This document shows positions 15,136-62,007 of a stretch of DNA of 64,000 bases, in pieces. Source of the DNA: an uncultured virus (IMG/VR IMGVR_UViG_3300030406_000618) (taxonomy: Duplodnaviria > Heunggongvirae > Uroviricota > Caudoviricetes); the IMG/VR virus record IMGVR_UViG_3300030406_000618; one strand, written 5' to 3'. Under the pieces are notes generated by a model. That model was not told the origin of the DNA. It saw nothing but the letters and a program-made list of their open reading frames with translations, and did not search any database. The position numbers were made by a program, and so were the translations under genes. Each line of letters starts with the position of its first letter. Position 1 is the first letter of the stretch.

Positions 15136-16740
15136 TTACTCCTTATTAGCAATAGTAGGTTGACCTTGTTCATCTACAGTTAAGGTCTGATTATTATTGT
15201 TTAGTAGTTCACCTGCTTTAGTAATAACTCTAGGGTCTAAGAATTGTTGACCTGCTTGAGATGCTTGTTGTTGTTGCATCTCTTGTTCTACTTGCTCAGG
15301 TGATTTTATTAAACCTTGTGTGTCTATTCCGTTTGCTACTGCAAACTTCTTAATAGCATCATTTAGGTTTACATATTTAGCTAATGTTTCCGCACCTAAT
15401 GTAGATGCTAAATCAGACATAAATTGTAAAAGTTTTATTCTGTCACTAGCCCTACCTAATGCTTCCATTCCTACTATTATTTTTGTTTTAACAATATCTT
15501 TTGGAAGTTCAGGTAGTAGTTTCTGTCTCCTTAACAAAGCTATTTTTGCTTGTAAATAAGGCAACTGAAATTCTGTTGTTAGTATGCCATAGACACCACC
15601 AAGAGCATCTTGTAATTCGTTAGCAACTAGTTGTACTTCTGTTGCCGTAACTCTCTCAGCTTGTCTTTGTACTGATGCATTTAATAAAAATGCAAATTGT
15701 AATCTTTGTTCTATTCGTTGTGAAGCTTCTAAGGCTACTCTAAAATCACCAAATTTATTAGCTTGTAATACAGAAACATCCTGTGCTTGGCCTTCAATAA
15801 TTGCACCATTTGGTGCTTTTGCTATTGATGATGCTCTTGTAGTACCGTTAGGTGATACCATAAATAACATTTTAGATGATGCAGATGAGCCTTCTAATAT
15901 AGACCTTGTTAGTCCTTCTAATGATTTTAAATCACCAATATAACTTTCTACATGTCCTCTACCATAATCACTACCGTCTACTCTATTAAATCGTAGTGGT
16001 ATGTATGGCATATTTTCTTCTGTAAATTTTTGTTTTAATACTTCTACTTTTTTTATTTCTTGCATTAACTCGTAACCATTTTTTGCTTTTTTAATGCATG
16101 TATATAAGTGCAAGAATTGATTGTCTTCCATATCTTGTGGAATAACATTTTGTAATTTAGGGGGAATAGATGCTCTAGAAATATGCTCTTTGATTATGAT
16201 AGTAAGTATCTTGCCTTCAGGGTCACGTTTAACTACGTAGTTTTCTAATCTAATTACACGTAATCCTTGTTCGCCTAATTTTAATAATACATTACCTGAT
16301 ATGATTAATTGTTTTAATGCTTCGTATACTGCAACTCTATCATTGTTGCTTTCAATATTGTCCATGATAGATTTTTCTATCTTGGCTAAACCTTGTTCTA
16401 TTGTAGCTTTTTGTTCAGGATTACCTTCTAATTGTTTATAAATTAAATCATCAATATCTAATCTAAAAAATGGTGCTTGAGGTGGAAACAAAGCTAACAT
16501 TAATTTAGATGCTAGATTAGTAACACCTCTACTACCTACTGATTGATATGGTGTAGGATATGTTGTTGCTTCGTTTGCTCCTTTTGGCGGAAATAAATGT
16601 GGTATAGTTAGTTCAGATGCTTCTCTTGCTCTCTCAATATATGTCTCTCTATTGATGCTCAGCTTTTCGTACTGACTTTCAATATTAGATTTATCATCTT
16701 TATTGGCAGTAGTTCCTAAGCTATAAGTCTCTGTAGCCAT
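15136..16740 (-). CDS. Portal / head-tail connector (gp8-like)
   Basis: PYQSVGSRGVTNLASKLMLALFP, YGRG and ERVTATEV motifs. Confidence 0.95.
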   Translation of the reverse strand: MATETYSLGTTANKDDKSNIESQYEKLSINRETYIERAREASELTIPHLFPPKGANEATTYPTPYQSVGSRGVTNLASKLMLALFPPQAPFFRLDIDDLIYKQLEGNPEQKATIEQGLAKIEKSIMDNIESNNDRVAVYEALKQLIISGNVLLKLGEQGLRVIRLENYVVKRDPEGKILTIIIKEHISRASIPPKLQNVIPQDMEDNQFLHLYTCIKKAKNGYELMQEIKKVEVLKQKFTEENMPYIPLRFNRVDGSDYGRGHVESYIGDLKSLEGLTRSILEGSSASSKMLFMVSPNGTTRASSIAKAPNGAIIEGQAQDVSVLQANKFGDFRVALEASQRIEQRLQFAFLLNASVQRQAERVTATEVQLVANELQDALGGVYGILTTEFQLPYLQAKIALLRRQKLLPELPKDIVKTKIIVGMEALGRASDRIKLLQFMSDLASTLGAETLAKYVNLNDAIKKFAVANGIDTQGLIKSPEQVEQEMQQQQASQAGQQFLDPRVITKAGELLNNNNQTLTVDEQGQPTIANKE

Positions 16741-24030: not shown

Positions 24031-25695
24031 CTATATACAGAAAAATACACTATCTTTTACCTGCTCTAGATTTAGATTACCCTTAGGTGGTAATTTAGGG
24101 AACTTGTTTTGATTTTTAGTAGACAACATAGCATACATTTGGTCTGACCATTTCTGTAGTACATCATCTTGGTAAATATCAAAGAAGGCTTCCCTTATAG
24201 CCTTTGACATAATGTCTGTTTCAGGTGCGACTACACCAAAACTATCATGTATCATACTAAAACTATCAACACCTGCTTCGTGTGCTTTTACTACTGCTAG
24301 TTGTAGACATGATGCATCTAGACTATGTATAAAATTAGGCGCAACTGATTGTGATATTTTTCTACTGTCAATGTTATCTGTTTCTGATTGCACAGTTAGT
24401 TTTATTATACTGTCACCCATTTTTGTTTTCACTCTCTTGTGTTCCATTTTGTAATTCATCATCTGCACTGGCGCATTCAATGGTGTTGTCCAAGATACAG
24501 GTAAATTTTCTGACGCAACAAGACGAGATACTTCTTGTAAAAATGCCATAATATTTTTTGCACCAACAACTACATCACCTATGCTATCCCAAACAACAGG
24601 TGTTAAATATTGTGTTGCTCTAAATAAATCGTCACCAAAATTGTGTTGCTTTCCTCTGTCTTGTAATTCTTTTACTACATGCTCTTCTATATATTCTCTA
24701 CATGAATATCTTGTCAGGCCGTATGGCAAACACATTGTAGGTTTCTTACATATTTTTCTATCTATGCCATAGTCAATCCATTGCATAGCTATCTTATCTC
24801 TACGTTGATTTAACTTTTCTAATACCTTAGTTGCAATGATGCCGTATATGTCTTGTGGTTTATTACTTGGTATTAAATTAGTAGCCTTACCACCATGTTC
24901 ATCTCGCATCATAGCTGAATAATGTTGTAAGCCTGAGTTACTACAATCTGTCTGTACTGGTAATGAAGTTAAAAATTTATTACTAAATCTTGTACTAGCA
25001 AACTCTTCATACTCTTTACAAAATGCATAGAATGCAAACGGTTTGTCTGCGCTATTCCACCATGTATCTCTCAATGGGTCTTTTGCAGTAGATAATATTC
25101 TATCATGGTTTGCTTGCACCCATTTTATCCTTGTGTTGATATCTTCTTTGTCAACTTCACCAAAACAATTTGCACCATATATAAATAAATGATGTTCACT
25201 ATCGCCTATAGGTTTTCCATATTTAAAAGTAAGTAAAGTCCTTGACCAGTCAGCACCTTGTGGATTTAACAATGCAGGCTTAGGATATATTCTCCACCTA
25301 AAATCATACTGATGTGGAAAGAACATTGACTTACCACCATATAATTTAGCTATGTTTAGCACCTGATTACATTGTATAAATTTAGATTTTTGTTGGTGTC
25401 TAAGGTCATAAACTTTATTTGCTCTACGTTTATAATCTCTTAGACTTTCTTTGTTTGTTGCAATATCGTATGGCTTAGGTGGTAGTTCTATAGTCTCAGG
25501 ATTTACAGGTAGCTTACCTAATGCATAGTTATTATCTAAACAAGTCTGTATAAGTTTGTATACGTGGTCGTTTCTAACCCATTCTGTTTCTTGTATACAA
25601 TCTATAGCCTTATATACATAAGGCATGTCATTAACTATATTATTTAACTCTTCTAAGTATTGTCTATTTCTTTGTTTTTGTAGATTGTAATGCAT
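24031..25695 (-). CDS. T7-type RNA polymerase, C-terminal catalytic part
   Basis: Motif A DCSNSGLQH, motif B RKICKKPTMCLPYG, motif C IHDSF; own RBS GGAAGGGGT. Confidence 0.93.
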   Translation of the reverse strand: MHYNLQKQRNRQYLEELNNIVNDMPYVYKAIDCIQETEWVRNDHVYKLIQTCLDNNYALGKLPVNPETIELPPKPYDIATNKESLRDYKRRANKVYDLRHQQKSKFIQCNQVLNIAKLYGGKSMFFPHQYDFRWRIYPKPALLNPQGADWSRTLLTFKYGKPIGDSEHHLFIYGANCFGEVDKEDINTRIKWVQANHDRILSTAKDPLRDTWWNSADKPFAFYAFCKEYEEFASTRFSNKFLTSLPVQTDCSNSGLQHYSAMMRDEHGGKATNLIPSNKPQDIYGIIATKVLEKLNQRRDKIAMQWIDYGIDRKICKKPTMCLPYGLTRYSCREYIEEHVVKELQDRGKQHNFGDDLFRATQYLTPVVWDSIGDVVVGAKNIMAFLQEVSRLVASENLPVSWTTPLNAPVQMMNYKMEHKRVKTKMGDSIIKLTVQSETDNIDSRKISQSVAPNFIHSLDASCLQLAVVKAHEAGVDSFSMIHDSFGVVAPETDIMSKAIREAFFDIYQDDVLQKWSDQMYAMLSTKNQNKFPKLPPKGNLNLEQVKDSVFFCI

Positions 25696-26632
25696 TCTTT
25701 ACCCCTTCCACTGTATTTTCCTCGTTATATTTTTTGCCATAGTAACCACCAACAAAAGGATTTTCCCACTTGCGAGGTGGCATAATCATAGGCATAAAAT
25801 CAGGATGTAAAGCTTCGTTAGATATATTAAAATTTTTTATTTCTTCTATCGTTTTATCTGTAGCTTCAACATATCTTATAGATTTATTCTTATATATTTT
25901 CTTTAGCGGTATATTTATTAACCCAACTATTTTTAAAAAATAAATCATCTTTGTACCTAAATGCACTTTGTCTGTCTTGTTCCATTTAATAAAATCTACG
26001 TTGTTTTTATTCATAAAATAAACCCACACGTTTTTCTTATACATGTATTTGTTTTCTGTTTGAGGTATAGATTTACTAGAATTTAATTTATTAGAAACTC
26101 TAGCATACAATGATTTATCAGTTGCCATAAACTGTGTAATCCTTGCTTCCATTTCTAACGCATTACCAATTTTTATACTTAATCTATTCAGTGTTTGTCT
26201 GTTTGATATACCGTCTATACTATTTTTTATAATAATTAAACTAGCCTTATCCCATATAATCGGTATGTCATTTTTTAATTCAGCATTATTAAAATGCTTT
26301 TGTTCTAGACATTGACATATAAGTTTAATTGCAGTTTGGTGTCTGCCTGCCAAACCTTGTAAGGATTTAGTTACCCATTCGTGTATCATCTTAGATAAGA
26401 TTGATACATACTTCTGCTGAAATACTATTCCATGTAACGTAGTGCTTTCTTGACCCTTGGCCATAGCATTGTTGACTTGTTTGTTAAACTTCTCAATACC
26501 ACCACGCATCATCATTTGTTCTAACTCTAGTTCTTCTTCTATTTTTTTGGAATAATTTTCATCATCACGAAATTTACCGCCAACACCTACACGCATAAGT
26601 TCCTGTAGTTGCTCTTGGATAAGTCTATCCAT
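25664..26632 (-). CDS. T7-type RNA polymerase, N-terminal part
   Basis: IGNALEMEAR, KVHLG and PMIMPPRKW...GGYY motifs; stops after a 32-nt overlap with the next ORF. Confidence 0.88.
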   Translation of the reverse strand: MDRLIQEQLQELMRVGVGGKFRDDENYSKKIEEELELEQMMMRGGIEKFNKQVNNAMAKGQESTTLHGIVFQQKYVSILSKMIHEWVTKSLQGLAGRHQTAIKLICQCLEQKHFNNAELKNDIPIIWDKASLIIIKNSIDGISNRQTLNRLSIKIGNALEMEARITQFMATDKSLYARVSNKLNSSKSIPQTENKYMYKKNVWVYFMNKNNVDFIKWNKTDKVHLGTKMIYFLKIVGLINIPLKKIYKNKSIRYVEATDKTIEEIKNFNISNEALHPDFMPMIMPPRKWENPFVGGYYGKKYNEENTVEGVKNALQSTKTKK

Positions 26633-26642
26633 ATATGTCTCC

Positions 26643-27764
26643 TTAGTTTATATTATTAATGGTGTCAGCTATCTTAGATTTCATACTATCAGTAGGCTTA
26701 GCATAATAGGTCAAGGTAGTTTTAATATCCTTGTGGCCTAAATAATATTGTACTGATTTTATATCTAAGTTTGCTTCAACTAATCTAGTAGCAGTTGTGT
26801 GTCTCGTAGTATATGGCACATAGTCTGCTGATAAATTAGCTTGCTTACGGTAAAAATCCCACTTATGTCTGATTGTATTTTTGTTATATAAAAATAATTT
26901 TTGGTCTTGTCTTTGTGAAGCACTTAACTTTTTGCGTTCAAATATTTCAATCATGCAATGAGTTAGTTGAATTTCTGTCCATACTCCTGTCTTGGTACGA
27001 TAAAATCGTAGCCAATAATTATTGTTTTTCTGTGTCACGTTATTGAGGGTCAAAGCAAATATTTCACTATGTCTTTGACCCCCTTCAATAGCCCAATTAA
27101 TAAAGTCTGCAAAATCTTGGTCATTATTCTTTAAACAAGCTTGAACTAAATCAGCTTGTTGGTCAAGATATAACACAGGTTTTGGCTTACTCTCACTAAC
27201 AGGTAGGTTTCTGATAGTAGGAATATTATGACCGTCTATTAATCGTCTATCGCAGGCATACTCAAACATGACCCTGAGTAAACCTAACCTTTTATTGACA
27301 GAAGAGTTATGAGATGTACCGACATTGCTTCTGTCTTTGATATAACTAGCGCAGGCAATTTTAAAGTCTTCGACCTGCTCAAACCTTATCTGATTTATTT
27401 TAATGTTACCAAAAAATTTTAATAAATCTTTGTAGTATATTTCTTGAGCATCTTGGCTTGTAAGTTTACTAAACCTTGTCATGTTTAACTGTGAAAATAT
27501 TTCTGACAGTGTTTGTTTATTATACTTATCATCATTGCCTAAACTTACTTTTGTTTTTAAGTTTGCTTTTATGTTAACTGCTTCTTGTAATGCTTTGTAA
27601 AACTCCTGCTCATATTCTTGACTAGAATAGTTGTCAGGCAAGTCCAGTTTTACTGTAGCAAACTGCCTTGATATCTTACCGTTATGTATTTTTGATTGAT
27701 TAATTTGTAATGTCTTCTCGTCTCTCAATCGTATACCTTTTGGAAGTGCCTTACTTATCATCAT
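26643..27764 (-). CDS. int: Tyrosine recombinase/integrase
   Basis: GQRHSE, RTKT, YTTRHT and LGHKDIKTTLTYY catalytic pattern. Confidence 0.9.
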   Translation of the reverse strand: MMISKALPKGIRLRDEKTLQINQSKIHNGKISRQFATVKLDLPDNYSSQEYEQEFYKALQEAVNIKANLKTKVSLGNDDKYNKQTLSEIFSQLNMTRFSKLTSQDAQEIYYKDLLKFFGNIKINQIRFEQVEDFKIACASYIKDRSNVGTSHNSSVNKRLGLLRVMFEYACDRRLIDGHNIPTIRNLPVSESKPKPVLYLDQQADLVQACLKNNDQDFADFINWAIEGGQRHSEIFALTLNNVTQKNNNYWLRFYRTKTGVWTEIQLTHCMIEIFERKKLSASQRQDQKLFLYNKNTIRHKWDFYRKQANLSADYVPYTTRHTTATRLVEANLDIKSVQYYLGHKDIKTTLTYYAKPTDSMKSKIADTINNIN

Positions 27765-28566: not shown

Positions 28567-28739
28567 ATTACCGCCTTCTCACCTTCATGCGCTAAGTAAA
28601 TACCGTAAAAAAATACTGCGGTAAGTAACCAGTCTAACAATAAAGGTAATTCTAGTTGTTGAGTTACACTGCCTAGCAGTTGCAGGAGTAACCCTGCAAC
28701 GCAAATTAAAAATAAAAATAGTCTTAATGCATATATCAT
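28563..28739 (-). CDS. Small two-TM membrane protein, 58 aa
   Basis: MIYALRLFLFLICVAGLLLQLLG...; TAATG-coupled to the ArdC-like gene. Confidence 0.55.
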   Translation of the reverse strand: MIYALRLFLFLICVAGLLLQLLGSVTQQLELPLLLDWLLTAVFFYGIYLAHEGEKAVI

Positions 28740-29659
28740 TACGCAACCGCCTTTACATCTTGGCTTTCTGCCTTAGGTTGTAACTCATCAATAAAATTGA
28801 TTGCTTTTTGAGCATGGGCCATTGCAGTGAATAAAGCTTTTGGTTTGTCTTTAATATCTGCAATCCAACCATTAAGATATTTTGCGTGTTGGTCGCTTGG
28901 CTTTTTAGCTATCTGCAAAATATTAGATAATATTGCACTGCCTAATTCTGCAACCAACTCTTCCTGCGCATAACTTAGACACTTCTTAGACCCATTATCA
29001 AGTCTATCTATGCGTGATTTGTGGCCAGTCCAGTGAACCAATTCATGCAAGATAGTTGAGTAGTAAGCTTCTTGCTTTGTTTGGTCTGCTGTACTCTTCC
29101 AAGTGTCAAGCGGTGACATGTTAATATAATCCATAGACGGCACGTAGTAACAACGGCCCGCCTCAGTATGCTTAATAATTGCCTTAGTGTTTTTGATGTA
29201 CTCATCAACACCTGCAATTTTTTCTACTAAGCTTTTTGGCTTGTTGTTTTTTTGTTTGAAGTCTTCAGCATTAAGTGTTGTTTGCTCAAGATTAAAAACA
29301 TTATAAGACTTTAAGAATTTATAACCTTCATTAAACTTCTTACCGTCTTCACCTTCCTTGGTTGTTATATGCGTACCGTAATAAAATACTGGTGTAGCAG
29401 TCTCACCTTTAAGAACCCTGCCACCTGCACCGTTTATTTGTTTAAACGTGGCCCATGTATTACAAGGATATGGATTAAACATTTGCAACCAAAATAAATT
29501 GATACCGCTATAATTACGGCCCTGCAAATTATGAGGAAGTGAATAGTTACCTTGTTTGGTATGACCACCAAACGGCTTAAGCCAGTCAGTTCCAACGTCT
29601 TCCATGCGCTTAATAACTAAGTTCGCAACTTGTTGGACTTTTTGATTTGTTAAAGTCAT
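28739..29659 (-). CDS. ardC: ArdC-like antirestriction protein (ssDNA-binding plus zincin-like domain)
   Basis: YSGIN, WATFKQ, VLKGE, VFNLEQT, HELVHWTGH and YAQEELVAE motifs. Confidence 0.85.
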   Translation of the reverse strand: MTLTNQKVQQVANLVIKRMEDVGTDWLKPFGGHTKQGNYSLPHNLQGRNYSGINLFWLQMFNPYPCNTWATFKQINGAGGRVLKGETATPVFYYGTHITTKEGEDGKKFNEGYKFLKSYNVFNLEQTTLNAEDFKQKNNKPKSLVEKIAGVDEYIKNTKAIIKHTEAGRCYYVPSMDYINMSPLDTWKSTADQTKQEAYYSTILHELVHWTGHKSRIDRLDNGSKKCLSYAQEELVAELGSAILSNILQIAKKPSDQHAKYLNGWIADIKDKPKALFTAMAHAQKAINFIDELQPKAESQDVKAVA

Positions 29660-30624: not shown

Positions 30625-32292
30625 TTAATAACTTATCCATGATTTAGTGTTTCCGACACCCCAATACTTTTCTAACTCCTCGTTTAACATCTCTTCTCTA
30701 CGATTTTTAAAAGCCGTATCTTGGTCTTTACTTAATTGTTGTAACCAATAGTGACAACATAACTGTAAGGCATCTATTCTATCGTCATTAGCTAGTGTGT
30801 TTGCTCCTTTTTGTAGTCTAGAGCATTGATAAAATAGCTGATATCTAAGGGCCTGCTCAGCAGAATATATACTATTAGTGCTTTCGTAGTCTTCTTTTAT
30901 TACATTTCTATCAACAATAATTCTATGCTGAGAGAATAACGGCTCTAGTGTGTCTAGTATTCTACGGTGCTTATTAGCCGTTTGACGTACATTTTCTGTA
31001 GTACAAGGATATTCTTTAGATAAATATGGTTTGAGTAAGGCTTCAAACATACCTTGACCAAAGTTTTCTTCTATCAGTATTTTCTTAACGGAATGCTTCT
31101 TAGCTATCTTTGTCAGCTTGTCTAATACATATTCTGTATATCCTGCATTAAATCCACCGATATCTACTAAAAATATATTACCGTTTAGAAACTTTGTAAC
31201 ACAATATGCGGTCTCGTCTCTGCCTTTACCTGAAGGGTCTATAGACATTACACAACCTTGATACGGCAACCATTCGCCTTGTATCTGCATAGGTCTAAAA
31301 TAGGCATCTCCCATTAACCCTACATTCGGCAAATCATTATGTTGTAACTCAGGGGAAGAAGCCCATATTACTTTCTCAGGTGCATTATCAGGGTTCAGGT
31401 TCATAACGACCAAATCGGATAACTTAAGAGGATATTTATGTAAATCAGATAGAGTAGTGTCTAACTGAAATTGCATGTTAAAACCTAGTCTTCCGTAACT
31501 AGCTTCTCTCTCAAGTAAATCTTTATCGTCAAATCTAGAAGGTTCTGTAGATTTACCTACTTCTTCTGTAGACCATGTATTTTGTATGATAGGTGCTAGG
31601 TTAGAGCCATAACTCTTTAGTTGTTCTTCACTAGGATATCTAGCAGTCCAATACCTAACTTTATAACCACGTTCTTGTAACTTATTGTAAATACTTTGCT
31701 CACACTGAGGTGTGCCTAAAAACACGATTTTAGACGTTTCTAAGGGCTTTATAATAGCTTCGAACTCTTTGATAGCTTCTGATAGCTTATCTCGCATAAA
31801 CTGCGTCTGTGTATTACCTGACGTTTCAATATCATCAGCAACAATCAAATCTGCTCTACTACCAGTTAACTGTGATGTAATACCTAGAGATTTTACACTT
31901 GGTTGGTGAGATGCTAAAGCAGGTGCAACATCAAAAGAAATCTTAGATTGTCGTTGATTTTCAGTAGGTTTTAGATGTAGTAACAACGGCATCTCAGACA
32001 ATAGTCTTAGACAAAATGTACTAAAATCGTCTGCTCTATTTTTACTAGCTGATACAACTAAGATATTTAACTTAGGGTCTAATAATAATCTCCACAATAC
32101 GTATGCAGAAGTTATCCAAGATTTACCTACACCTCTAAATGCAGATATAATCTGTCTGCTTTCTTCACTGGCTATATAATCAGCTATGTCAAACTGTATA
32201 GTTGTTGGCTCAGGTAGATTTAGATGTTTCCATACTAAGTATAAAAAATTTCTAAAATCTCTTAGAGCATCAGGTATTTGATGCGGTTGCAT
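30625..32292 (-). CDS. terL: Terminase large subunit (gp19-like)
   Basis: AFRGVGKSWITS, IVADD, IDPSGKGRDET and DDRIDAL motifs. Confidence 0.95.
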   Translation of the reverse strand: MQPHQIPDALRDFRNFLYLVWKHLNLPEPTTIQFDIADYIASEESRQIISAFRGVGKSWITSAYVLWRLLLDPKLNILVVSASKNRADDFSTFCLRLLSEMPLLLHLKPTENQRQSKISFDVAPALASHQPSVKSLGITSQLTGSRADLIVADDIETSGNTQTQFMRDKLSEAIKEFEAIIKPLETSKIVFLGTPQCEQSIYNKLQERGYKVRYWTARYPSEEQLKSYGSNLAPIIQNTWSTEEVGKSTEPSRFDDKDLLEREASYGRLGFNMQFQLDTTLSDLHKYPLKLSDLVVMNLNPDNAPEKVIWASSPELQHNDLPNVGLMGDAYFRPMQIQGEWLPYQGCVMSIDPSGKGRDETAYCVTKFLNGNIFLVDIGGFNAGYTEYVLDKLTKIAKKHSVKKILIEENFGQGMFEALLKPYLSKEYPCTTENVRQTANKHRRILDTLEPLFSQHRIIVDRNVIKEDYESTNSIYSAEQALRYQLFYQCSRLQKGANTLANDDRIDALQLCCHYWLQQLSKDQDTAFKNRREEMLNEELEKYWGVGNTKSWISY

Positions 32293-53257: not shown

Positions 53258-53652
53258 TGTTCACAACCATGTTTCTTTAAGTATTTATATAACTGAAAAG
53301 GGGTAATAATCAATCTATTTATTCCTAGCACTCTCATAATGACAGTTACACAAGAATGTTCTCTCAACCATGCAGCTTGAAATAATCTCCACTTATGGCG
53401 AAATGTCTTGCATTTTAAAATAATACCATCATGTTGTTTTATATAGACCATCATCTGATCTACTTCTGTACCATCTATAATATTTAAGTCTAATCTTCTG
53501 TGTATATGTTCTACTACCATCCATTTATCTTTTTTTGGAAAGTATGCAAAAGCACCACAATGTGCCATCCCATTTTTTCTGAACCTGTGATACCACTCAT
53601 GGTTTGGTGGATCATAAAAAAATACTAGCCATTCCTTCGGAAAATATCCCAC
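53245..53652 (-). CDS. Putative permuted papain-like (NlpC/P60-type) protein
   Basis: His (HCG) before Cys (SCV), C-terminal TPFQLY. Confidence 0.45.
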   Translation of the reverse strand: MGYFPKEWLVFFYDPPNHEWYHRFRKNGMAHCGAFAYFPKKDKWMVVEHIHRRLDLNIIDGTEVDQMMVYIKQHDGIILKCKTFRHKWRLFQAAWLREHSCVTVIMRVLGINRLIITPFQLYKYLKKHGCEQWDF

Positions 53653-55148
53653 TTTTTCCTCCTGTTCATAGAACTACGATCAAATATATTCCAGTTCTTA
53701 TAAGCATTAGATACTTGTGGTTTTGCTGGACCTATAGTTAATGATCTACCTTCTCCTGCACCTAACATTAAATATTGTAGTGCATCATGTACGTGTGAAA
53801 ATTTATTTTTATTAGGTTTATCCTCATATCTTTCTCCAGAAGTTTGTATTCTTCTATAGTGGTATCCACCAAGAAAACCTTTTCTTAGTTGTTTACAGGA
53901 TGGCGATAGTAAGAAACCAGACTTACCATCAACCATCCTATTTAATGCAGCTTCTACTGATTCTATTCGTAGAGATACATCATTTGATGGAGCTGGAAAG
54001 GCTTGGATACCTTGTTGTCTTAGTATCTGAAAAGGAGTAGTTTCATCTGTCTGTGCCCTAAAATCTCCAGCTGGATCACCAAATATTTTTAAATCTTTAT
54101 CTGCACAATGTTTAATAATCTCATGTTTTAGTAATTCACTAAATTTAACTGTGCCTATATCAAAACAAACTAATTCATGAAGTATCAACCATCTACCATC
54201 TGGTAGCTTTTGACCAAATACTGCAGAAGGTGTTAAGCCAAAGTCTAATCCAATATATACTGTAGTAGGTGCAAAAGGTATTTCTTCATCTGCTATATGG
54301 ACATCTTCTCTAAATGATCCATATACCAGTTTACCATCTTCTATAGTTCCTAATCTATTTAAAACATAAACATCAATCCAACTTTTAGATTTTCCTCTGA
54401 TAATATTTGGATAGTAATCTGGGGTAACATTTCTGATATTTTCTGCTGTATCATTAAGTACATAACCTTTAATTTTATCATCTTCTTTTTTTTCAATCAT
54501 TCCTGGAGGCTGTACAAAAAACTTCCAGTTATCTGGTTTAACTAACATTACAGATTCTTCTTGACTCATATGATCTGGAAAAGGAACTTCTCCAGACATA
54601 ATAGACCACCAATGATCTTCATCAGGTGCGTTAGTATCTGCTATTACACCATACCATGATGGTCCACCATCTTTCATAGAAGGATATCTACCTACACGCA
54701 TTGTACACGCATCTACAATAGATTTAGGAATCTCTCTTGCTTCATTTATCCATACACCAGTTAATTCTAAAGACAAGAGTTTCTTGACATCTTCAGGTCT
54801 ATCTAGTGCTAAAAAAATAACTTCTAGTTCTACATCACCTACATGAATGTTATGTGTATACGGAACTGAATATGTAAAGTTTCCAAATGAGTTTTCTGGA
54901 AACCAATCTAACCATGTTTTGATTGTTGTAGTCTTTAACTGTGGGTTAGTATTTCTTATAACTGCCCATCTAGATTTACGTTTACCATCTGGACTAGGTG
55001 TTTGTTTTAATGCACGTCTAAATAATTCAATACAGCAGGATACAGATTTACCAGATCCTACTGGACCACGTACACCTCTAAAGAAAGATTCATCCTTCAT
55101 AAAGGATTTAATAACCTCTCCAGGTGCTTTATAATTTAATTCTGTCAA
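53625..55148 (-). CDS. terL: Terminase large subunit
   Basis: GPVGSGKS, VWINEARE, GLDFG and HVHDALQY motifs. Confidence 0.93.
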   Translation of the reverse strand: MTELNYKAPGEVIKSFMKDESFFRGVRGPVGSGKSVSCCIELFRRALKQTPSPDGKRKSRWAVIRNTNPQLKTTTIKTWLDWFPENSFGNFTYSVPYTHNIHVGDVELEVIFLALDRPEDVKKLLSLELTGVWINEAREIPKSIVDACTMRVGRYPSMKDGGPSWYGVIADTNAPDEDHWWSIMSGEVPFPDHMSQEESVMLVKPDNWKFFVQPPGMIEKKEDDKIKGYVLNDTAENIRNVTPDYYPNIIRGKSKSWIDVYVLNRLGTIEDGKLVYGSFREDVHIADEEIPFAPTTVYIGLDFGLTPSAVFGQKLPDGRWLILHELVCFDIGTVKFSELLKHEIIKHCADKDLKIFGDPAGDFRAQTDETTPFQILRQQGIQAFPAPSNDVSLRIESVEAALNRMVDGKSGFLLSPSCKQLRKGFLGGYHYRRIQTSGERYEDKPNKNKFSHVHDALQYLMLGAGEGRSLTIGPAKPQVSNAYKNWNIFDRSSMNRRKKWDIFRRNG

Positions 55149-56262: not shown

Positions 56263-56537
56263 TTTGATTTATTAGCCCAAAACGCAGCTGACATCTTGCC
56301 TTTGGCTATATTTTTTCGATGTCTAGCTTTAAATGATTTTCTTTTCATTTTCATTCTCTTAGACTCTCCTGCTTTTGGTTTACCAGCTGTACTAGCTCCC
56401 TGTTCACCATATCTAATAGTTTTTATTTTATTGCCTTCTTTGGCGACTACGACATGAGATTTTTTAGGATGATTAGGGGTACGTTTAGGTTTGTTATATC
56501 CAGATACACCTATCCTTTTTAAAAGGCTTTGGCTCAT
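56256..56537 (-). CDS. Small basic protein (DUF6321/DUF5754-like)
   Basis: KTIRYGEQG...RKSFKARH...SAAFWA; homologous to 13244-13513. Confidence 0.7.
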   Translation of the reverse strand: MSQSLLKRIGVSGYNKPKRTPNHPKKSHVVVAKEGNKIKTIRYGEQGASTAGKPKAGESKRMKMKRKSFKARHRKNIAKGKMSAAFWANKSKW

Positions 56538-56884
56538 TTTATACTAATCAATAAATTACTAGGATCTTTTATTGCAGATAATAAACCATTAGCAAACTTT
56601 TTATAACTATTAGTCATTTTTTTTACACCAATAGTATTAAAGTTATCTACATTGTTCATCATAGCTTTAAAACCTAAAGCACCAGTATCTTTAAGAAATG
56701 AATTCTTTAATGTAGATTTATTATAACCTATCTCTTTAAATGTATTAACTTGTTTATCAGATAAACCAGACCAATACTTATTAAAAACGTCATTATCTTC
56801 CATTAACCTTATTAATTCTTTCTCTTTTATCTTTTTTGATGTGTTTTTTGCACCAGGCAACATTGATTGTCTTGTTTTAACCAT
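56534..56884 (-). CDS. Hypothetical protein
   Basis: 116 aa, ATGA-coupled. Confidence 0.55.
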   Translation of the reverse strand: MVKTRQSMLPGAKNTSKKIKEKELIRLMEDNDVFNKYWSGLSDKQVNTFKEIGYNKSTLKNSFLKDTGALGFKAMMNNVDNFNTIGVKKMTNSYKKFANGLLSAIKDPSNLLISIK

Positions 56885-56914
56885 AAACGTACTTTACCCA
56901 AAAAAAAAATATAT

Positions 56915-57142
56915 TCAACGCTGTTTGTAGTGTTCATAACATAGAAAATAATAACTACCTACCTCGTTCTTGATATGAAACGGAGCAAATTCTCCACACT
57001 CACAACAACGACAATACTTAATGTGTTCTTTATGTGTCCATTTTAGTATTTGTAACAGATTGTAACACGGACCTTTTTCGCTATTAATGTGAGTAGAGGA
57101 CCTTTCTCTGTGCTGTCGCTCCTGTTTTCTAACCCCCCTCAT
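56915..57142 (-). CDS. Small Cys-rich hypothetical protein (start uncertain)
   Basis: CCEC...CYEH zinc-ribbon-like pattern. Confidence 0.45.
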   Translation of the reverse strand: MRGVRKQERQHRERSSTHINSEKGPCYNLLQILKWTHKEHIKYCRCCECGEFAPFHIKNEVGSYYFLCYEHYKQR

Positions 57143-57526
57143 CTAATCTAGGTCTATCTTGATAGAGAGATTTCCTCCTACACTGTGCTGTACCTTATCA
57201 GGAGCTTTGAACCCACTCCTATCTAGGATGTCCTTCGACGCCTCTAGCTTCACGTAATCAGACTTCGCATCTTGTGCGAGTCTTACGATAGTCTTGACTG
57301 CTGGGATAGCTCCCACCAGACCTATCTCTGCTATACGTGAGCGGTAGTACTCTTGTACCTTTGGAAGTCGTAGCGTCTTACTAGCAGTAACTCTACCAGC
57401 TTCTCCCTTTGCATATCCTGCTATTTGACTAGCTTTTGCTACGGAGCAACCTTCTGCTACGAGGGTATCAATTAGCTTACGTTGTTTGTTTGTAAGACCA
57501 TCAGGTCCTTTTATGTGACTGCCCAT
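57143..57526 (-). CDS. terS: Terminase small subunit
   Basis: LTNKQRKL...ASQIAGY...LRLPKV...ILDRSG; start moved to ATG 57526. Confidence 0.8.
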   Translation of the reverse strand: MGSHIKGPDGLTNKQRKLIDTLVAEGCSVAKASQIAGYAKGEAGRVTASKTLRLPKVQEYYRSRIAEIGLVGAIPAVKTIVRLAQDAKSDYVKLEASKDILDRSGFKAPDKVQHSVGGNLSIKIDLD

Positions 57527-57797
57527 AACGATAGATACCTTGCTACGGTTTATGTTGTCAAGTGAAAAATTGTAAACAAACGAGAGATGTTCCCTCTCTC
57601 GTGCTCTCTCCCTAGTGGGATGATCTAGGATCATCAGTTTAAAAGGTAAATAAAATTGACTTATTAGCGTAATAGCCATGACTAGTTGTCATGTCTATCA
57701 GTACGCCCATGTATCTCTAGTTCGCTCTGCTCCCAAGAGCTACTATGTTTCTCAGTCGAGCTGAGAATAACAAGCAATCCAATTTTATTTTTACTCT

Positions 57798-58022
57798 CTC
57801 TCGATAATGCTCCATTCGTGGCGACAGAGTTAGGGGGGGTATCAGCTATGTACACGCCACGAACTACCAGTAGATTCTTTCACCAGTCAAGCCATAAAGG
57901 CTCTCGGTGCAACAAGTTGCTTGACGTTTATATCACTTCGTGAAGCGATCAAACAACTGGTCGCACTGACTGTCTTAGAATCTATGGTTGCTAAAGTGGG
58001 CATTAACGAGAGATCGACTCTC
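57798..58022 (+). ncRNA. Candidate multi-branched structured RNA / leader
   Basis: Nested complementary stems (detailed in findings); G-T pairs favour the plus strand. Confidence 0.5.
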
Positions 58023-58044
58023 ATCATATCAAAGGAGATATACA

Positions 58045-58404
58045 ATGAAGATAACAAGTAACAAAATATATGTAGTTCACACACAATACTATGAGGATTA
58101 CAATATGGAGGCTTCATCATGGAATGAAGGATATTACAAATTTAAAGGAGGAGATACATACTTCCTCTTTGGATTTGACAAAATGGCTACAGCAGTAGCA
58201 TTTGTACATAAGGAATTATGTTATCCAACTGAGTTTCCATCTGGCTACGATGAAATGACATATGATGAAGCAGAAAAATTATATGCTGAGTACACGGAGC
58301 ATGGAGGTGAGGTAAAGAAAATAGACTTACATCAGTGGATGGAGTTGAATGATGGAGGAAGAACGCATAGCGTATCAAAAGATGAAGGAGGCAGAAATGC
58401 ATAA
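58045..58404 (+). CDS. Early hypothetical protein
   Basis: ATG 58045 after AAAGGAG; TQY.E.Y...YYKFKGG.TY. Confidence 0.7.
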   Translation: MKITSNKIYVVHTQYYEDYNMEASSWNEGYYKFKGGDTYFLFGFDKMATAVAFVHKELCYPTEFPSGYDEMTYDEAEKLYAEYTEHGGEVKKIDLHQWMELNDGGRTHSVSKDEGGRNA

Positions 58405-58576
58405 TCCATTGGAAAAAGAAGCATGTGATATCATAGATAGAATTAGATATCTTGAGGAATCAGGTGCACCTAAGGATGAAATTGATCTTGAAAGACAAAG
58501 ACTTCAAGGAACAATGTATGGTAAAGAACTAGAATACAATGATGTAGAGGAGGTAAATTATGTCATACACAAATAA
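58397..58576 (+). CDS. Hypothetical protein
   Basis: ATG after AAGGAGG. Confidence 0.6.
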   Translation: MHNPLEKEACDIIDRIRYLEESGAPKDEIDLERQRLQGTMYGKELEYNDVEEVNYVIHK

Positions 58577-59072
58577 ACCAAGACACCTAGATACGGATGA
58601 AGCTAACATCCAAGCCATTACTATGGTAGCTAACCAAGATTGGTATCAGATACTAGGACATCTTGTTGATGAAACATCTGATGTAGATGTCAATTACTCA
58701 CAGTTATTATTGTGGCAGATATACAATTCATCCAAACGATCTGTGTTTTCATTCAGCTTCAATGCACAGTATTACAAAGATAAACAGATGAATAGTTATC
58801 AGGTTGATAGGGAGTCCACATCAGGACAAGAGATAGCTGAAACCAATGCAAACTACATGGTTTTACAAGGTAAAACATGGAACGCATTGGCTGAGAAATA
58901 CAAAGCTATCAATGAAGCTAGTATCAAACTATATGAAATGTTGTACCAACAACATCCAAAAGATAGGAAGATCACCAAAGTAAGTAAAGGTGAAATGAGA
59001 ACACTAGCTGACATGACACCAGAGGAAGTCAAAAGAATTACTGAGGTGAATAATCAGATGTTCGGATACTAA
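58560..59072 (+). CDS. Hypothetical protein
   Basis: 170 aa, GGAGGT RBS. Confidence 0.7.
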   Translation: MSYTNKPRHLDTDEANIQAITMVANQDWYQILGHLVDETSDVDVNYSQLLLWQIYNSSKRSVFSFSFNAQYYKDKQMNSYQVDRESTSGQEIAETNANYMVLQGKTWNALAEKYKAINEASIKLYEMLYQQHPKDRKITKVSKGEMRTLADMTPEEVKRITEVNNQMFGY

Positions 59073-59089
59073 TCTGAAATAATATTTCA

Positions 59090-59129
59090 GCTAGTGGGGT
59101 TTATACCCCATTAGCAAAAATTTTTTTTT
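59090..59129 (+). terminator. Hairpin / probable terminator
   Basis: GCTAGTGGGGT-ttat-ACCCCATTAGC followed by A5 and T9. Confidence 0.6.
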
Positions 59130-59149
59130 CAGCGAGGACCAGGGGTATG

Positions 59150-59178
59150 TTGAATATACCGAGCACTCGTGTTACAAT
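59150..59178 (+). promoter_or_regulatory. sigma70-type promoter
   Basis: TTGAAT-17 nt-TACAAT with TGn extension. Confidence 0.6.
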
Positions 59179-59195
59179 AAAAAGAAGGAGATAAG

Positions 59196-59504
59196 ATGAT
59201 CAAATCAAAAGTAGCATTTGATGCAGCAGAACGTGCAGCATCATGGGGGGTAAAAAAAATAACAGGTGGTAAATTTTCTGCCTATGCTGAGTATATCGGA
59301 ACATTCTTTCTGATCTACTGTGGCTTAGGTGGTGGCTTTATTGCTATGTGTTTATTCCTTGGTATCAATCCAACATTAGTTGTGTCAGTAGTAGCTGCAC
59401 CAATATGGATTGGTATTGTATTTCTAACTAACAATCTAACTAAGATAGCAGTACATCTAAAGGATGTTGATAGTAATCCAACATCTAAAAGAAAGAAGAA
59501 GTAA
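59196..59504 (+). CDS. Two-TM membrane protein
   Basis: Two hydrophobic helices; AAGGAG RBS. Confidence 0.65.
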   Translation: MIKSKVAFDAAERAASWGVKKITGGKFSAYAEYIGTFFLIYCGLGGGFIAMCLFLGINPTLVVSVVAAPIWIGIVFLTNNLTKIAVHLKDVDSNPTSKRKKK

Positions 59505-61203: not shown

Positions 61204-62007
61204 ATGTTACCACAAGAACTAATGTTTCAGGTACGTGAAGAACCTGTATATAACCAACATGGCTCAAGGCTAGATGGCTACAAGCAGTTGGTTAAAGACG
61301 AGAACAACGAACTGATTGCAGTTCACAAGAACACATACCGAGTCATATCACATGACACAGTATATGATAAAGCTAAAGATTTTCTAACAGATAACTTTAA
61401 CACCAATGGTATGACTGAGGAACACAAATGGTCTAACCATGGTGCTGTAATGGCTACTAGATTCTCTTTACCAGAGTATCAGATACCATTCAAAGATACT
61501 TCTATTGGTCTAGAAGCTGTAGTATGGAACAGCTACAATGGTATGCGTTCATTTAGATTTGATCTAGGTTTCTACCTGTGGTTATGTCTTAATGGACTCA
61601 AGAATTCGGTATGGGATATCAGTTTGAATACTGCACACAAAGGTAGTGGTGAGATTAAACTAGCATTACCTGGTGGTTATGCAGCTCTTGATGGACTACA
61701 AACTGTATATAACTACATGACTAACTGGTTAGAAACACCAGTACAAGACTATGAATTATATAGTGAAATAGATAGATTGTGCTATCAGCCAACACGTACT
61801 GACAAGAGTCATGTCAATCAACAACATAGAAATTATATTGTAGATCAGTATGAAAACAATTATGCAAAGACATATGGACCTAATAAATTCAGTGCATATC
61901 AAGCAATTACACACTGGAGTACACATTATCCTAGCGATTCCGTAAATACTCGTTATGATAGAGAAAGGAAAGTGTCTAACATGGCTTGGTTTAGCCAAGC
62001 AGCGTAG
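61204..62007 (+). CDS. DUF932/DUF945-like protein
   Basis: VH...Y..I.H, NSYNG, CLNG, H and N.FSAYQAITHWSTH pattern. Confidence 0.75.
   Translation: MLPQELMFQVREEPVYNQHGSRLDGYKQLVKDENNELIAVHKNTYRVISHDTVYDKAKDFLTDNFNTNGMTEEHKWSNHGAVMATRFSLPEYQIPFKDTSIGLEAVVWNSYNGMRSFRFDLGFYLWLCLNGLKNSVWDISLNTAHKGSGEIKLALPGGYAALDGLQTVYNYMTNWLETPVQDYELYSEIDRLCYQPTRTDKSHVNQQHRNYIVDQYENNYAKTYGPNKFSAYQAITHWSTHYPSDSVNTRYDRERKVSNMAWFSQAA

What the first reader, a model, noticed from the sequence alone, without database searches (positions are those of the whole stretch)
57798..58022. About 215-nt multi-branched RNA-like fold with a competing hairpin beside the first early RBS
The outer stem CTCTCG-a-TAATGC-t-CCA (57798-57814) pairs with TGG-GCATTA-a-CGAGAG (57997-58012). 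Inside are TTCGTGGCG/CGCCACGAA (57815-57863) and TAGATTCT/AGAATCTA (57871-57984). The latter encloses CAGTCA/TGACTG, AGCC/GGCT, GCAAC/GTTGC and GCGATCA/TGGTCGC. GAGAG-atcga-CTCTC (58008-58022) competes for the 3' strand just before the RBS at 58031. It matches no RNA family I recognise and could be a new phage ncRNA or switch.
Basis: partly seen in the sequence, partly recalled or inferred. Interest (0 to 1): 0.75.

Follow-up and report, generated by a model that had tools for sequence, protein, structure and literature searches.

The report
Conserved folded element, pelagiphage control spacer
A roughly 220-base stretch between the packaging genes and the first early gene of a marine SAR11-type phage folds into a branched structure that related phages keep intact through paired mutations; it matches no catalogued RNA family, and it may fold on the opposite strand from the one first proposed.

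Summary
The fold is real. Window 57798-58022 folds at -82 kcal/mol (z -5.5). It recurs in 29 distinct full-length sequence variants from viral and metagenome contigs. Its helices are kept by compensatory changes: 11 of 41 tested pairs, against 6.6 in shuffles, with 0 of 500 shuffles as high. No Rfam family matches. It is not coding, because the variants differ in length (196-243 nt). The host genome is a Hodr-like pelagiphage podovirus. The element lies in a ~520-nt structured spacer between a divergent TerS (late) gene and a hypervariable first early gene. The minus strand folds better in 26 of 26 variants and in all class consensus folds. A.C mismatches on plus (G.U on minus) outnumber G.U about 4:1 in the variable arm. 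Against this, the unpaired bases are A-rich on plus, and conservation runs from ~30 nt upstream exactly to the early ATG. A conserved c(GAA)g mini-hairpin on the minus strand also fits a single-stranded-DNA signal. My odds are minus-strand RNA 0.33, plus-strand early leader 0.30, and minus-strand ssDNA element 0.25. It is a new structured element whose function is open.

The parts
57798..57814 (.). P1, 5' arm on the plus strand (CTCTCG-a-TAATGC-t-CCA). It is preceded by the CT repeat that starts at 57794.
   Evidence: Pairs with 57997-58012. 15 pairs, of which 13 are invariant and 1 is compensatory (C-G in 6 sequences, U-A in 20).
57997..58012 (.). P1, 3' arm (TGG-GCATTA-a-CGAGAG).
   Evidence: inverted repeat I1
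57815..57863 (.). P2 hairpin: 9-bp stem TTCGTGGCG/CGCCACGAA and a 31-nt loop with a G run, ATCAGC and GTACA.
   Evidence: The stem changes compensatorily in L036 and in the L021/L025 type (TTCGTTG/CAACGAA).
57866..57878 (.). P3, 5' arm (ACCAgTAGATTCT).
   Evidence: Pairs with 57977-57988. 7 of 12 pairs show changes on both sides.
57977..57988 (.). P3, 3' arm (AGAATCTATGGT).
57884..57972 (.). Variable arm P4-P6: P4 CAGTCA/TGACTG, the P5 hairpin AGCC-ATAAA-GGCT, and the long P6 arm capped by CAC-TTC-GTG at 57934-57942 (c(GAA)g on the minus strand).
   Evidence: Four structural classes have swapped sequences but kept the helices. CACTTCG is invariant in classes A-C.
57989..57996 (.). Junction strand TGCTAAAG between P3 and P1.
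   Evidence: Nearly invariant.
58008..58022 (.). Small hairpin GAGAG-atcga-CTCTC that shares GAGAG with P1.
   Evidence: Stem invariant in 26 of 26 variants. The loop is 4-6 nt in the L021/L025 type. It is flagged as terminator-like on the TerS-sense strand in L025.
58023..58047 (+). Invariant stretch holding the hairpin ATATC-AAAGGA-GATAT (58026-58041), the SD AAAGGAG (58031-58037) and the ATG (58045). On the minus strand, 58031->58023 reads TGATATGAT (extended -10-like).
   Evidence: one compensatory pair; promoter-like TTTTCA-17-TATGAT with TG in L031.
57770..57797 (.). Conserved block just outside P1 on the left.
   Evidence: blastn matches to relatives start at window 57770.
57648..57790 (.). 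Separate closed module upstream, bounded by an 11-nt perfect inverted repeat. Most relatives carry an unrelated module here.
57580..57602 (-). Hairpin CGAGAG..CTCTCG followed by TTTGTTTAC on the minus strand (terminator-like).
57524..57561 (-). TerS start (ATG at 57526) preceded on the minus strand by TTGACA (57561->57556), 18 nt, TATCTA (57537->57532) and 5 nt.
   Evidence: Read. The Pfam/PHROG TerS match starts at residue 59-62 of the long ORF. TerS relatives align from the Met at 57526.

Best explanation
The element is a real three-way-junction fold: P1 closes P2 and a long, class-variable P3-P6 arm. It is maintained by selection in Hodr-like pelagiphages, inside the fully structured spacer that separates the divergent TerS/late module from the early module. 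My best single reading is that it is RNA and that the strand under structural selection is the minus strand (TerS sense). On this reading it is a long countertranscript-type RNA that starts just outside P1, next to the early ribosome-binding site (candidate extended -10 TGATATGAT, 58031->58023). It runs antisense through the whole early leader and the variable hairpin modules, and it ends at or reads through the hairpin plus U tract at 57602->57575, in front of TerS. It would tune or shut off expression of the hypervariable early genes by antisense pairing and promoter interference. The plus-sense copy would be its target leader. Shown: the fold, its conservation, the covariation, the absence of an Rfam match, and the minus-strand advantage in pairing. 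Inferred: that it is transcribed, the start and end of the transcript, and the regulatory effect.
For: Fold: z -5.5 on plus and -6.6 on minus. Conservation: 29 distinct full-length variants, and 15 of 69 TerS-relative loci carry both anchors. Covariation on 26 sequences and 41 pairs: 97.7% of cells are paired against 93.0% in shuffles; 11 pairs have double changes against 6.6; the score is 0.148 against 0.067. Each of these three measures reached 0 of 500 shuffles. Slid controls gave 29-42% paired. Strand: the minus strand is more stable in 26 of 26 variants. Consensus folds, plus/minus, were A -74.0/-79.7, B -59.3/-67.0 and C+D -51.7/-76.1 kcal/mol. Shuffle-corrected strand difference was z -1.6 to -3.2 in 4 of 4 classes. 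In the P3-P6 arm there are 88 A.C cells (G.U on minus) against 19 G.U cells, and several sites alternate between Watson-Crick and A.C. In 14 other spacer families, the minus z-score is the more negative in 13. A minus-strand promoter-like site with TG abuts P1. A terminator-like hairpin lies on the minus strand before TerS in the window. YUNR-like UUUA loops are seen on the minus strand, read from the P5 and class-D loops.
Against: Unpaired positions are 39.7% A and 27.7% U on the plus strand (n=1261). That is typical of an RNA on plus and atypical of one on minus. Conservation stops exactly at the early ATG, and the first gene is hypervariable. A minus-strand promoter would therefore have its -35 in non-conserved coding DNA. 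No sigma-70 consensus promoter passed the scan in the window spacer. The minus-strand terminator-like hairpin lacks a U tract in several relatives (read). A cruder neutral count gave only 52 A.C against 31 G.U cells, in 20 against 19 contexts. One covariation measure (further pair types) did not exceed the shuffles (16 against 17.6; 486 of 500 as high). No expression data exist.
Confidence: 0.33

Rival explanations
1. Plus-strand RNA. The element is the structured 5' leader of the early transcript. It starts at the CT repeat just after a weak promoter in the conserved 30-nt block and ends at the RBS. It acts in cis on translation start, mRNA stability or processing of the first early gene, and it travels as a promoter-leader-SD cassette in front of exchangeable early genes.
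For: The conserved block runs from 57770 to exactly the ATG, while the gene behind it falls into about six unrelated N-terminal types, judged by eye. In other spacer families the closing stem also ends 0-25 nt before the early SD. Unpaired bases are A-rich on plus. The RBS hairpin keeps pairing through ATATC/GATAT, ATACC/GGTAT and GTACC/GGTAT, the last with a G.U on plus. Terminator-like hairpins on the early-sense strand lie ~60 nt upstream, as if insulating a promoter. cUUCGg-like loops occur in classes B and C.
Against: The plus strand is the weaker folder in 26 of 26 variants and in all class consensus folds. Helices carry conserved A.C mismatches: two in 9 of 9 class-A sequences, two within a 6-bp apex stem in L124/L130/L036, and two within an 11-bp stem in class C. 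G.U, which a plus RNA would tolerate, is rarer. The UUCG is out of register with the extended helix. No consensus promoter was found. The alternative hairpin does not touch the RBS.
Confidence: 0.3
2. Single-stranded DNA element on the minus strand, which is the template strand of the early genes. This could be a single-strand initiation or priming signal at the phage origin. It could also be a structured-DNA promoter or loading site of the Frpo, ssi or N4-hairpin kind, exposed by unwinding or supercoil-driven extrusion.
For: This is the only reading that fits all three intrinsic features. The first is wobble pairs on the minus strand. The second is T-rich unpaired bases on that strand. The third is an invariant c(GAA)g mini-hairpin at the arm apex in classes A-C, which recurs in 8 of 25 spacers examined. 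One of those spacers has CCGAAGG, the RSF1010 ssiA word. Such mini-hairpins are reported at G4 and RSF1010 ssDNA initiation sites and in N4 early promoters (PMC13037366, passages read). No minus-strand promoter is needed. The spacer lies at the GC-skew turn. Hodr has an initiator-like protein, SSB, RecE and RusA but no polymerase, primase or helicase hits. As DNA, the z-scores are -8.5 on minus and -7.8 on plus. The folded strand being the template of hypervariable early genes parallels Frpo (PMC11541004, passages read).
Against: No ssDNA signal of this size is known in a tailed dsDNA phage (from my own knowledge). No -35/-10 pair lies in the folded minus strand. There are no DnaA boxes (0 of 21 window matches fall in the spacer) and no iterons. 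The GC-skew turn is confounded with the gene-orientation switch. A rich, multi-branch covariation pattern is more usual for RNA. The exact conservation boundary at the ATG points to expression rather than replication.
Confidence: 0.25
3. Double-stranded DNA reading. The region is an array of protein-binding words (AACGAGAGAT twice, plus AACGATAGAT beside TerS; palindromes) for terminase (pac/cosB-like) or a switch regulator. The fold is then a by-product of palindromic sites.
For: The 10-nt word occurs at 57579 and 58005, with a 9-of-10 copy at 57527 next to the TerS start. CGAGAG occurs only twice in 64 kb, both times here. In lambda, cosB lies directly upstream of the small terminase gene (recalled).
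Against: Binding sites do not explain long helices kept by double changes over 12-bp stems, or swapped arms that keep their pairing. They also do not explain the strand asymmetry.
Confidence: 0.07

Closest known systems
Countertranscript antisense systems (R1 CopA/CopT, ColE1 RNA I/RNA II, pCF10 Anti-Q/prgQ leader). Recalled, not tested by sequence beyond Rfam.
   Same: A structured RNA is encoded opposite a long leader, so both senses fold as mirror images. It sits in a control region between divergent or convergent units. U-turn-like loops are present.
   Different: At ~220 nt with a three-way junction, the element is far larger than CopA or RNA I. No promoter or terminator is proven. There is no sequence or Rfam similarity. 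Expression is unknown.
Cis-acting 5' leaders and riboswitch-like elements of early phage genes; T4-type PeSL promoter/stem-loop cassettes that flank shuffled early genes (recalled).
   Same: It lies immediately upstream of an RBS. It has an invariant core with variable peripheral arms. It sits at a sharp recombination boundary in front of exchangeable early genes.
   Different: Pairing evidence favours the other strand. The alternative hairpin does not occlude the RBS or form a terminator on the plus strand. No ligand-type conserved pocket is identified.
ssDNA signals: Frpo/ssi promoters of plasmid leading regions (PMC11541004), G4 and RSF1010 ssi priming sites, and N4 early hairpin promoters (PMC13037366).
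   Same: The folded strand is the template strand. The element lies upstream of early, probably anti-defence-type, genes. It has a c(GNA)g mini-hairpin, and an SSB gene lies in the same arm in Hodr.
   Different: No -35/-10 mimic lies in the stems. The mini-hairpin is ~100 nt from the gene start, not at -17 to -5. No virion RNA polymerase gene was seen in the window. A tailed dsDNA phage has no known single-stranded entry stage.
HK022 put RNA and the lambda qut/6S region (promoter-proximal antitermination elements). Recalled.
   Same: If it is read on the minus strand, it is a promoter-proximal structured RNA ahead of a terminator-like hairpin and a ~25-kb late operon transcribed by host polymerase.
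   Different: A TTGACA-type promoter sits directly at TerS, downstream of the element. put is two ~65-nt stem-loops. There is no similarity.

Membership tests
Any Rfam 15 family | Covariance-model match | tested here: not met
   Window 56500-59500 at E<=10 gave only two chance-level snoRNA hits, neither on the fold itself (one lies at 58512-58644; the other, 58040-58098, covers only the early gene start and SD flank). Twenty related loci (108,981 bases) at gathering score gave 0 hits. No tRNA or tmRNA was found.
Structured functional RNA (general) | Helices kept by compensatory changes across homologues | tested here: met
   11 of 41 pairs have double changes and 61 cells against 22.2 in shuffles, with 0 of 500 shuffles as high. 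Slid controls gave at most 4 pairs. The arm classes are tabulated.
Riboswitch or translational leader switch | Lies on the sense strand of the regulated gene, inside its transcript | tested here: inconclusive
   Position and conservation boundaries fit, but pairing favours the antisense strand. There are no transcript data.
Riboswitch or translational leader switch | Mutually exclusive pairing that hides the RBS or forms a terminator | tested here: not met
   GAGAG/CTCTC competes with P1 but leaves AAAGGAG free. It has no U tract on plus and is invariant, so it is untestable by covariation.
Countertranscript antisense RNA | Own promoter and terminator on the strand opposite the leader | tested here: inconclusive
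   The extended -10-like TGATATGAT is invariant. The scan flags it only in L031 (9 of 12, with TG). A terminator-like hairpin is found in the window but it is not U-rich in all relatives.
Frpo-type ssDNA promoter | -35 and -10 hexamers recreated in the folded stem | tested here: not met
   No promoter-like site on the minus strand in 57300-58300.
Frpo-type ssDNA promoter | The folded strand is the template strand of downstream early or anti-defence genes | tested here: met
   The minus strand folds better and is the template for the plus-strand early genes. The arm holds a DUF932/anti-restriction-type gene. That the first genes have an anti-defence role is inference.
ssi priming signal / replication origin | c(GNA)g or GNNA mini-hairpin on the active strand | tested here: met
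   c(GAA)g on the minus strand at 57942->57934. It is invariant in classes A-C and present in 8 of 25 spacers.
ssi priming signal / replication origin | Origin context: DnaA boxes, iterons, and a skew switch independent of gene orientation | tested here: not met
   No DnaA-box-like site in the spacer and no iterons. The skew switch coincides with the strand switch of the genes.
N4-type hairpin promoter | A 5-7 bp, 3-nt-loop hairpin just upstream of the start, plus a virion RNA polymerase | tested here: not met
   The mini-hairpin lies ~100 nt from the ATG. No RNA polymerase was found among the genes of this phage's set that I scanned or in Hodr. The genome is only partly within the window.
Protein-coding gene | Reading frame kept among homologues | tested here: not met
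   Variants are 196, 198, 205, 225, 227, 228 and 243 nt between fixed anchors, and whole arms are swapped.

The most novel reading that the evidence does not exclude
The fold works as single-stranded DNA on the template strand. It would be a phage counterpart of plasmid Frpo/ssi signals or N4 hairpin promoters, nucleated by a c(GAA)g mini-hairpin. It would let host enzymes start transcription or priming in front of a slot of exchangeable early (anti-defence-like) genes in a small tailed dsDNA phage that lacks its own polymerases.
Probability: 0.22. Interest if true: 0.9.

Novelty: new variant of a known kind. Interest (0 to 1): 0.62.

Why it matters
Hodr-like podoviruses infect SAR11, the most abundant marine bacteria, and how they control early and late genes is unknown. 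This element is a well-supported, uncatalogued structured motif at the exact hinge between the two programmes, in front of a slot where unrelated early genes are exchanged. If it is an RNA (either strand), it adds a large new phage regulatory RNA family with clear covariation. If it is a template-strand DNA structure, it would extend ssDNA promoter or priming signals from plasmids and N4 to ordinary tailed phages. The related spacers (300-750 nt, z down to -8) suggest a whole set of such elements.

Tried and rejected
- **Rfam and tRNA:** Rfam with permissive and gathering thresholds gave nothing. The tRNA/tmRNA scan gave nothing.
- **Sequence searches:** blastn of 57500-58300 against the phage collection gave no match. 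The nearest held virus record, G001, gave no match. The window's own assembly is not held.
- **Cellular genomes:** the pattern scan gave one match, in an archaeal MAG. I did not examine it and took it as chance.
- **Expression:** six RNA-library runs were listed, all kept as contigs and with small word shares. I laid four of them. One 1181-nt contig of a relative spans TerS, the spacer and the start of the early gene. One 225-nt contig equals 57802-58028, in a run marked as probably DNA. Contigs give no strand, and they can break at variable flanks, so this says nothing about transcription.
- **Promoters:** sigma-70 scans found no site in the window spacer and 0 sites in L053 and L059. Promoter reading by eye on both strands stayed inconclusive.
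- **Origin features:** no DnaA boxes or iterons.
- **Second copy:** none in the window.
- **Long-range pairing:** a 6-nt match between the P2 loop and the TerS start region, seen by eye, is not conserved among variants, so I dropped it. The TAGCGT/TAGCGA words in upstream hairpin loops (sso CS-6-like, recalled) were not pursued.
- **Literature:** 'pelagiphage' plus 'noncoding RNA' returned 2 papers, irrelevant by their listing. 'EXVC031P' returned 0. 'HK022' plus 'put RNA' plus 'antitermination' returned 3 holders, of which 2 were listed, and I opened none.
- **Not done:** I built no covariance model, and R-scape is not available.

Full report
**What is there**

The 225 nt from 57798 to 58022 fold at -82.0 kcal/mol, against -56.9 +/- 4.5 for 200 dinucleotide shuffles (z -5.53). 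The architecture is a three-way junction:
- P1 (57798-57814 with 57997-58012) closes the fold.
- P2 is a hairpin (57815-57863).
- A long arm follows: P3 (57866-57878/57977-57988), P4, a small P5 hairpin, and an irregular P6 capped by CAC-TTC-GTG (57934-57942).

One of them, GCAAC/GTTGC, would leave a 2-nt loop. The reverse complement folds as well (-84.2 kcal/mol, z -6.63).

**Setting**

The window holds two podovirus gene sets. The element belongs to the second set:
- On the minus strand it has tail, core, capsid, portal, TerL (53625-55148) and TerS.
- The portal is 55% identical to that of Pelagibacter phage EXVC031P Hodr.
- Early genes on the plus strand start at the ATG at 58045.

The long ORF 57143-57679 is probably over-called. 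Family matches start at residue ~60, and relatives align from the Met at 57526. The non-coding spacer is therefore ~520 nt (57527-58044).

In Hodr the same layout is seen. TerS is followed by a 337-nt spacer and then a 6.7-kb plus-strand arm. That arm encodes an anti-restriction-type protein, an initiator-like protein, RecE, SSB and RusA, with no polymerase, primase or helicase hits. The remaining 27 kb lies on the other strand.

**Conservation**

- Of 69 viral loci encoding a TerS relative, 15 carry both element anchors.
- blastn shows that window 57770-58044 is conserved at 94% down to 69% identity, while 57613-57769 is replaced by other sequence.
- Pattern scans of viral and metagenome contigs added more copies.
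- In all there are 29 distinct full-length variants. Twenty-five are of the window type, including one identical to the window. Four are of a related L021/L025 type with the same architecture.
- Four loci were dropped from this count: two are truncated and two are unrelated.
- Lengths between fixed anchors are 196-243 nt, so the stretch is not coding.
- Rfam gives nothing, either in the window or in 20 related loci.

**Covariation**

I tested P1, P2, P3 and the RBS hairpin (41 pairs) on 26 distinct sequences (alignment A2). The results are:
- 97.7% of cells pair, against 93.0 +/- 0.4% in shuffles.
- 11 pairs have changes on both sides, against 6.6 +/- 0.8.
- The covariation score is 0.148 against 0.067.
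- For each of these three measures, 0 of 500 shuffles was as high.
- The count of further pair types did not exceed the shuffles (16 against 17.6).
- Sliding the partners by 1-3 columns gives 29-42% pairing.

P3 carries 7 of its 12 pairs with double changes. P1 and P2 are almost invariant. The P4-P6 arm comes in four classes with different sequences but matching helices and further double changes.

**Which strand folds**

Evidence for the minus strand:
- It is more stable in 26 of 26 variants.
- It is more stable in the consensus fold of each class: A -74.0 against -79.7, B -59.3 against -67.0, C+D -51.7 against -76.1 kcal/mol.
- After correcting for composition with paired shuffles, the strand difference is z -1.6 to -3.2 in four classes.
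- In the variable arm, A.C oppositions on plus (G.U on minus) make up 88 cells, against 19 G.U cells. Several sites alternate between a Watson-Crick pair and A.C.
- In 14 other spacer families of related phages, the minus z-score is the more negative in 13.

A cruder neutral count of single mismatches gave a weaker ratio: 52 against 31 cells, in 20 against 19 contexts.

Evidence for the plus strand:
- Unpaired positions are 39.7% A and 27.7% U on plus.
- The conserved block runs from ~30 nt left of P1 exactly to the early ATG.
- Behind the ATG, the first gene falls into about six unrelated N-terminal types by eye.
- The small RBS hairpin covaries and once uses a plus-strand G.U.

One further feature cuts a third way. 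The arm apex is a c(GAA)g triloop hairpin on the minus strand. It is invariant in classes A-C and recurs in 8 of 25 spacers. Such mini-hairpins are exceptionally stable in DNA. They are reported at G4 and RSF1010 single-strand initiation sites and in N4 early promoters (PMC13037366, passages read).

**Promoters, terminators, expression**

- The consensus scan finds no sigma-70 site in the window spacer.
- By eye, TTGACA-18-TATCTA-5-ATG precedes TerS on the minus strand.
- An invariant TGATATGAT (extended -10-like) abuts P1 on the minus strand. The scan flags it in L031.
- Terminator-like hairpins lie on the minus strand before TerS and on the plus strand ~60 nt before the element.
- Only contigs of RNA libraries were available, and they carry no strand information.
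- No DnaA boxes, iterons or second copies were found.

**Reading**

The fold and its selection are shown. What molecule folds is not shown. I rank the readings as follows:
- A TerS-sense structured RNA, antisense to the early leader: 0.33.
- The plus-strand early leader: 0.30.
- A minus-strand single-stranded DNA signal: 0.25.
- A double-stranded binding-site array: 0.07.

It would also not hide the RBS. Comparison with Frpo used passages of PMC11541004. The comparisons with CopA, RNA I, Anti-Q, put and PeSL are recalled from my own knowledge.

Noticed in passing
window 1-32300 versus 33000-64000: The window holds two different podovirus gene sets. Set A has a tail fibre, portal 15136-16740, DNA polymerase, primase/helicase, RNA polymerase, integrase 26643-27764 and TerL 30625-32292. 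Set B is the Hodr-like phage that carries the element. This suggests a chimeric or concatenated contig.
   Followed up: partly
window 24031-26632 (minus strand): The RNA polymerase of set A is split into two overlapping ORFs, 25664-26632 and 24031-25695. They match the N- and C-terminal parts of one PHROG family, so there may be a frameshift or a sequencing error.
   Followed up: no
window 57524-57679: The ORF 57143-57679 is probably over-extended, and TerS most likely starts at 57526. On the minus strand, TTGACA-18 nt-TATCTA-5 nt-ATG would give a leaderless TerS mRNA. A TTGAC word at this place is conserved even in distant TerS loci.
   Followed up: partly
window 58045 onward and loci: The first early gene behind the invariant RBS is exchanged among about six unrelated types across otherwise near-identical control regions. 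This looks like a cargo slot, possibly for anti-defence genes.
   Followed up: partly
window 57527, 57579, 58005: The 10-nt word AACGAGAGAT occurs twice, with a 9-of-10 copy next to the TerS start. CGAGAG occurs only twice in 64 kb, both times in the spacer, and 4 of the 7 CTCTCTC words are here. These may be protein-binding words.
   Followed up: partly
loci L008/L016 (about 580 nt folded), L053/L059 (520-700 nt): Other TerS-to-early spacers are unrelated in sequence but very strongly structured (z about -8). L053 and L059 show a marked minus-strand advantage (+ -2.6/-3.8 against - -7.2/-7.8). These are further candidate elements.
   Followed up: partly
window 28739-29659 and 61204-62007: Both phage sets carry an anti-restriction-type or DUF932 gene. 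Hodr has a homologue in its early arm.
   Followed up: no
window 57648-57790: A separate module is closed by a perfect 11-nt inverted repeat just upstream of the element. Most relatives carry an unrelated module here that contains the hairpin GGCTATAGCGATAGCC.
   Followed up: partly
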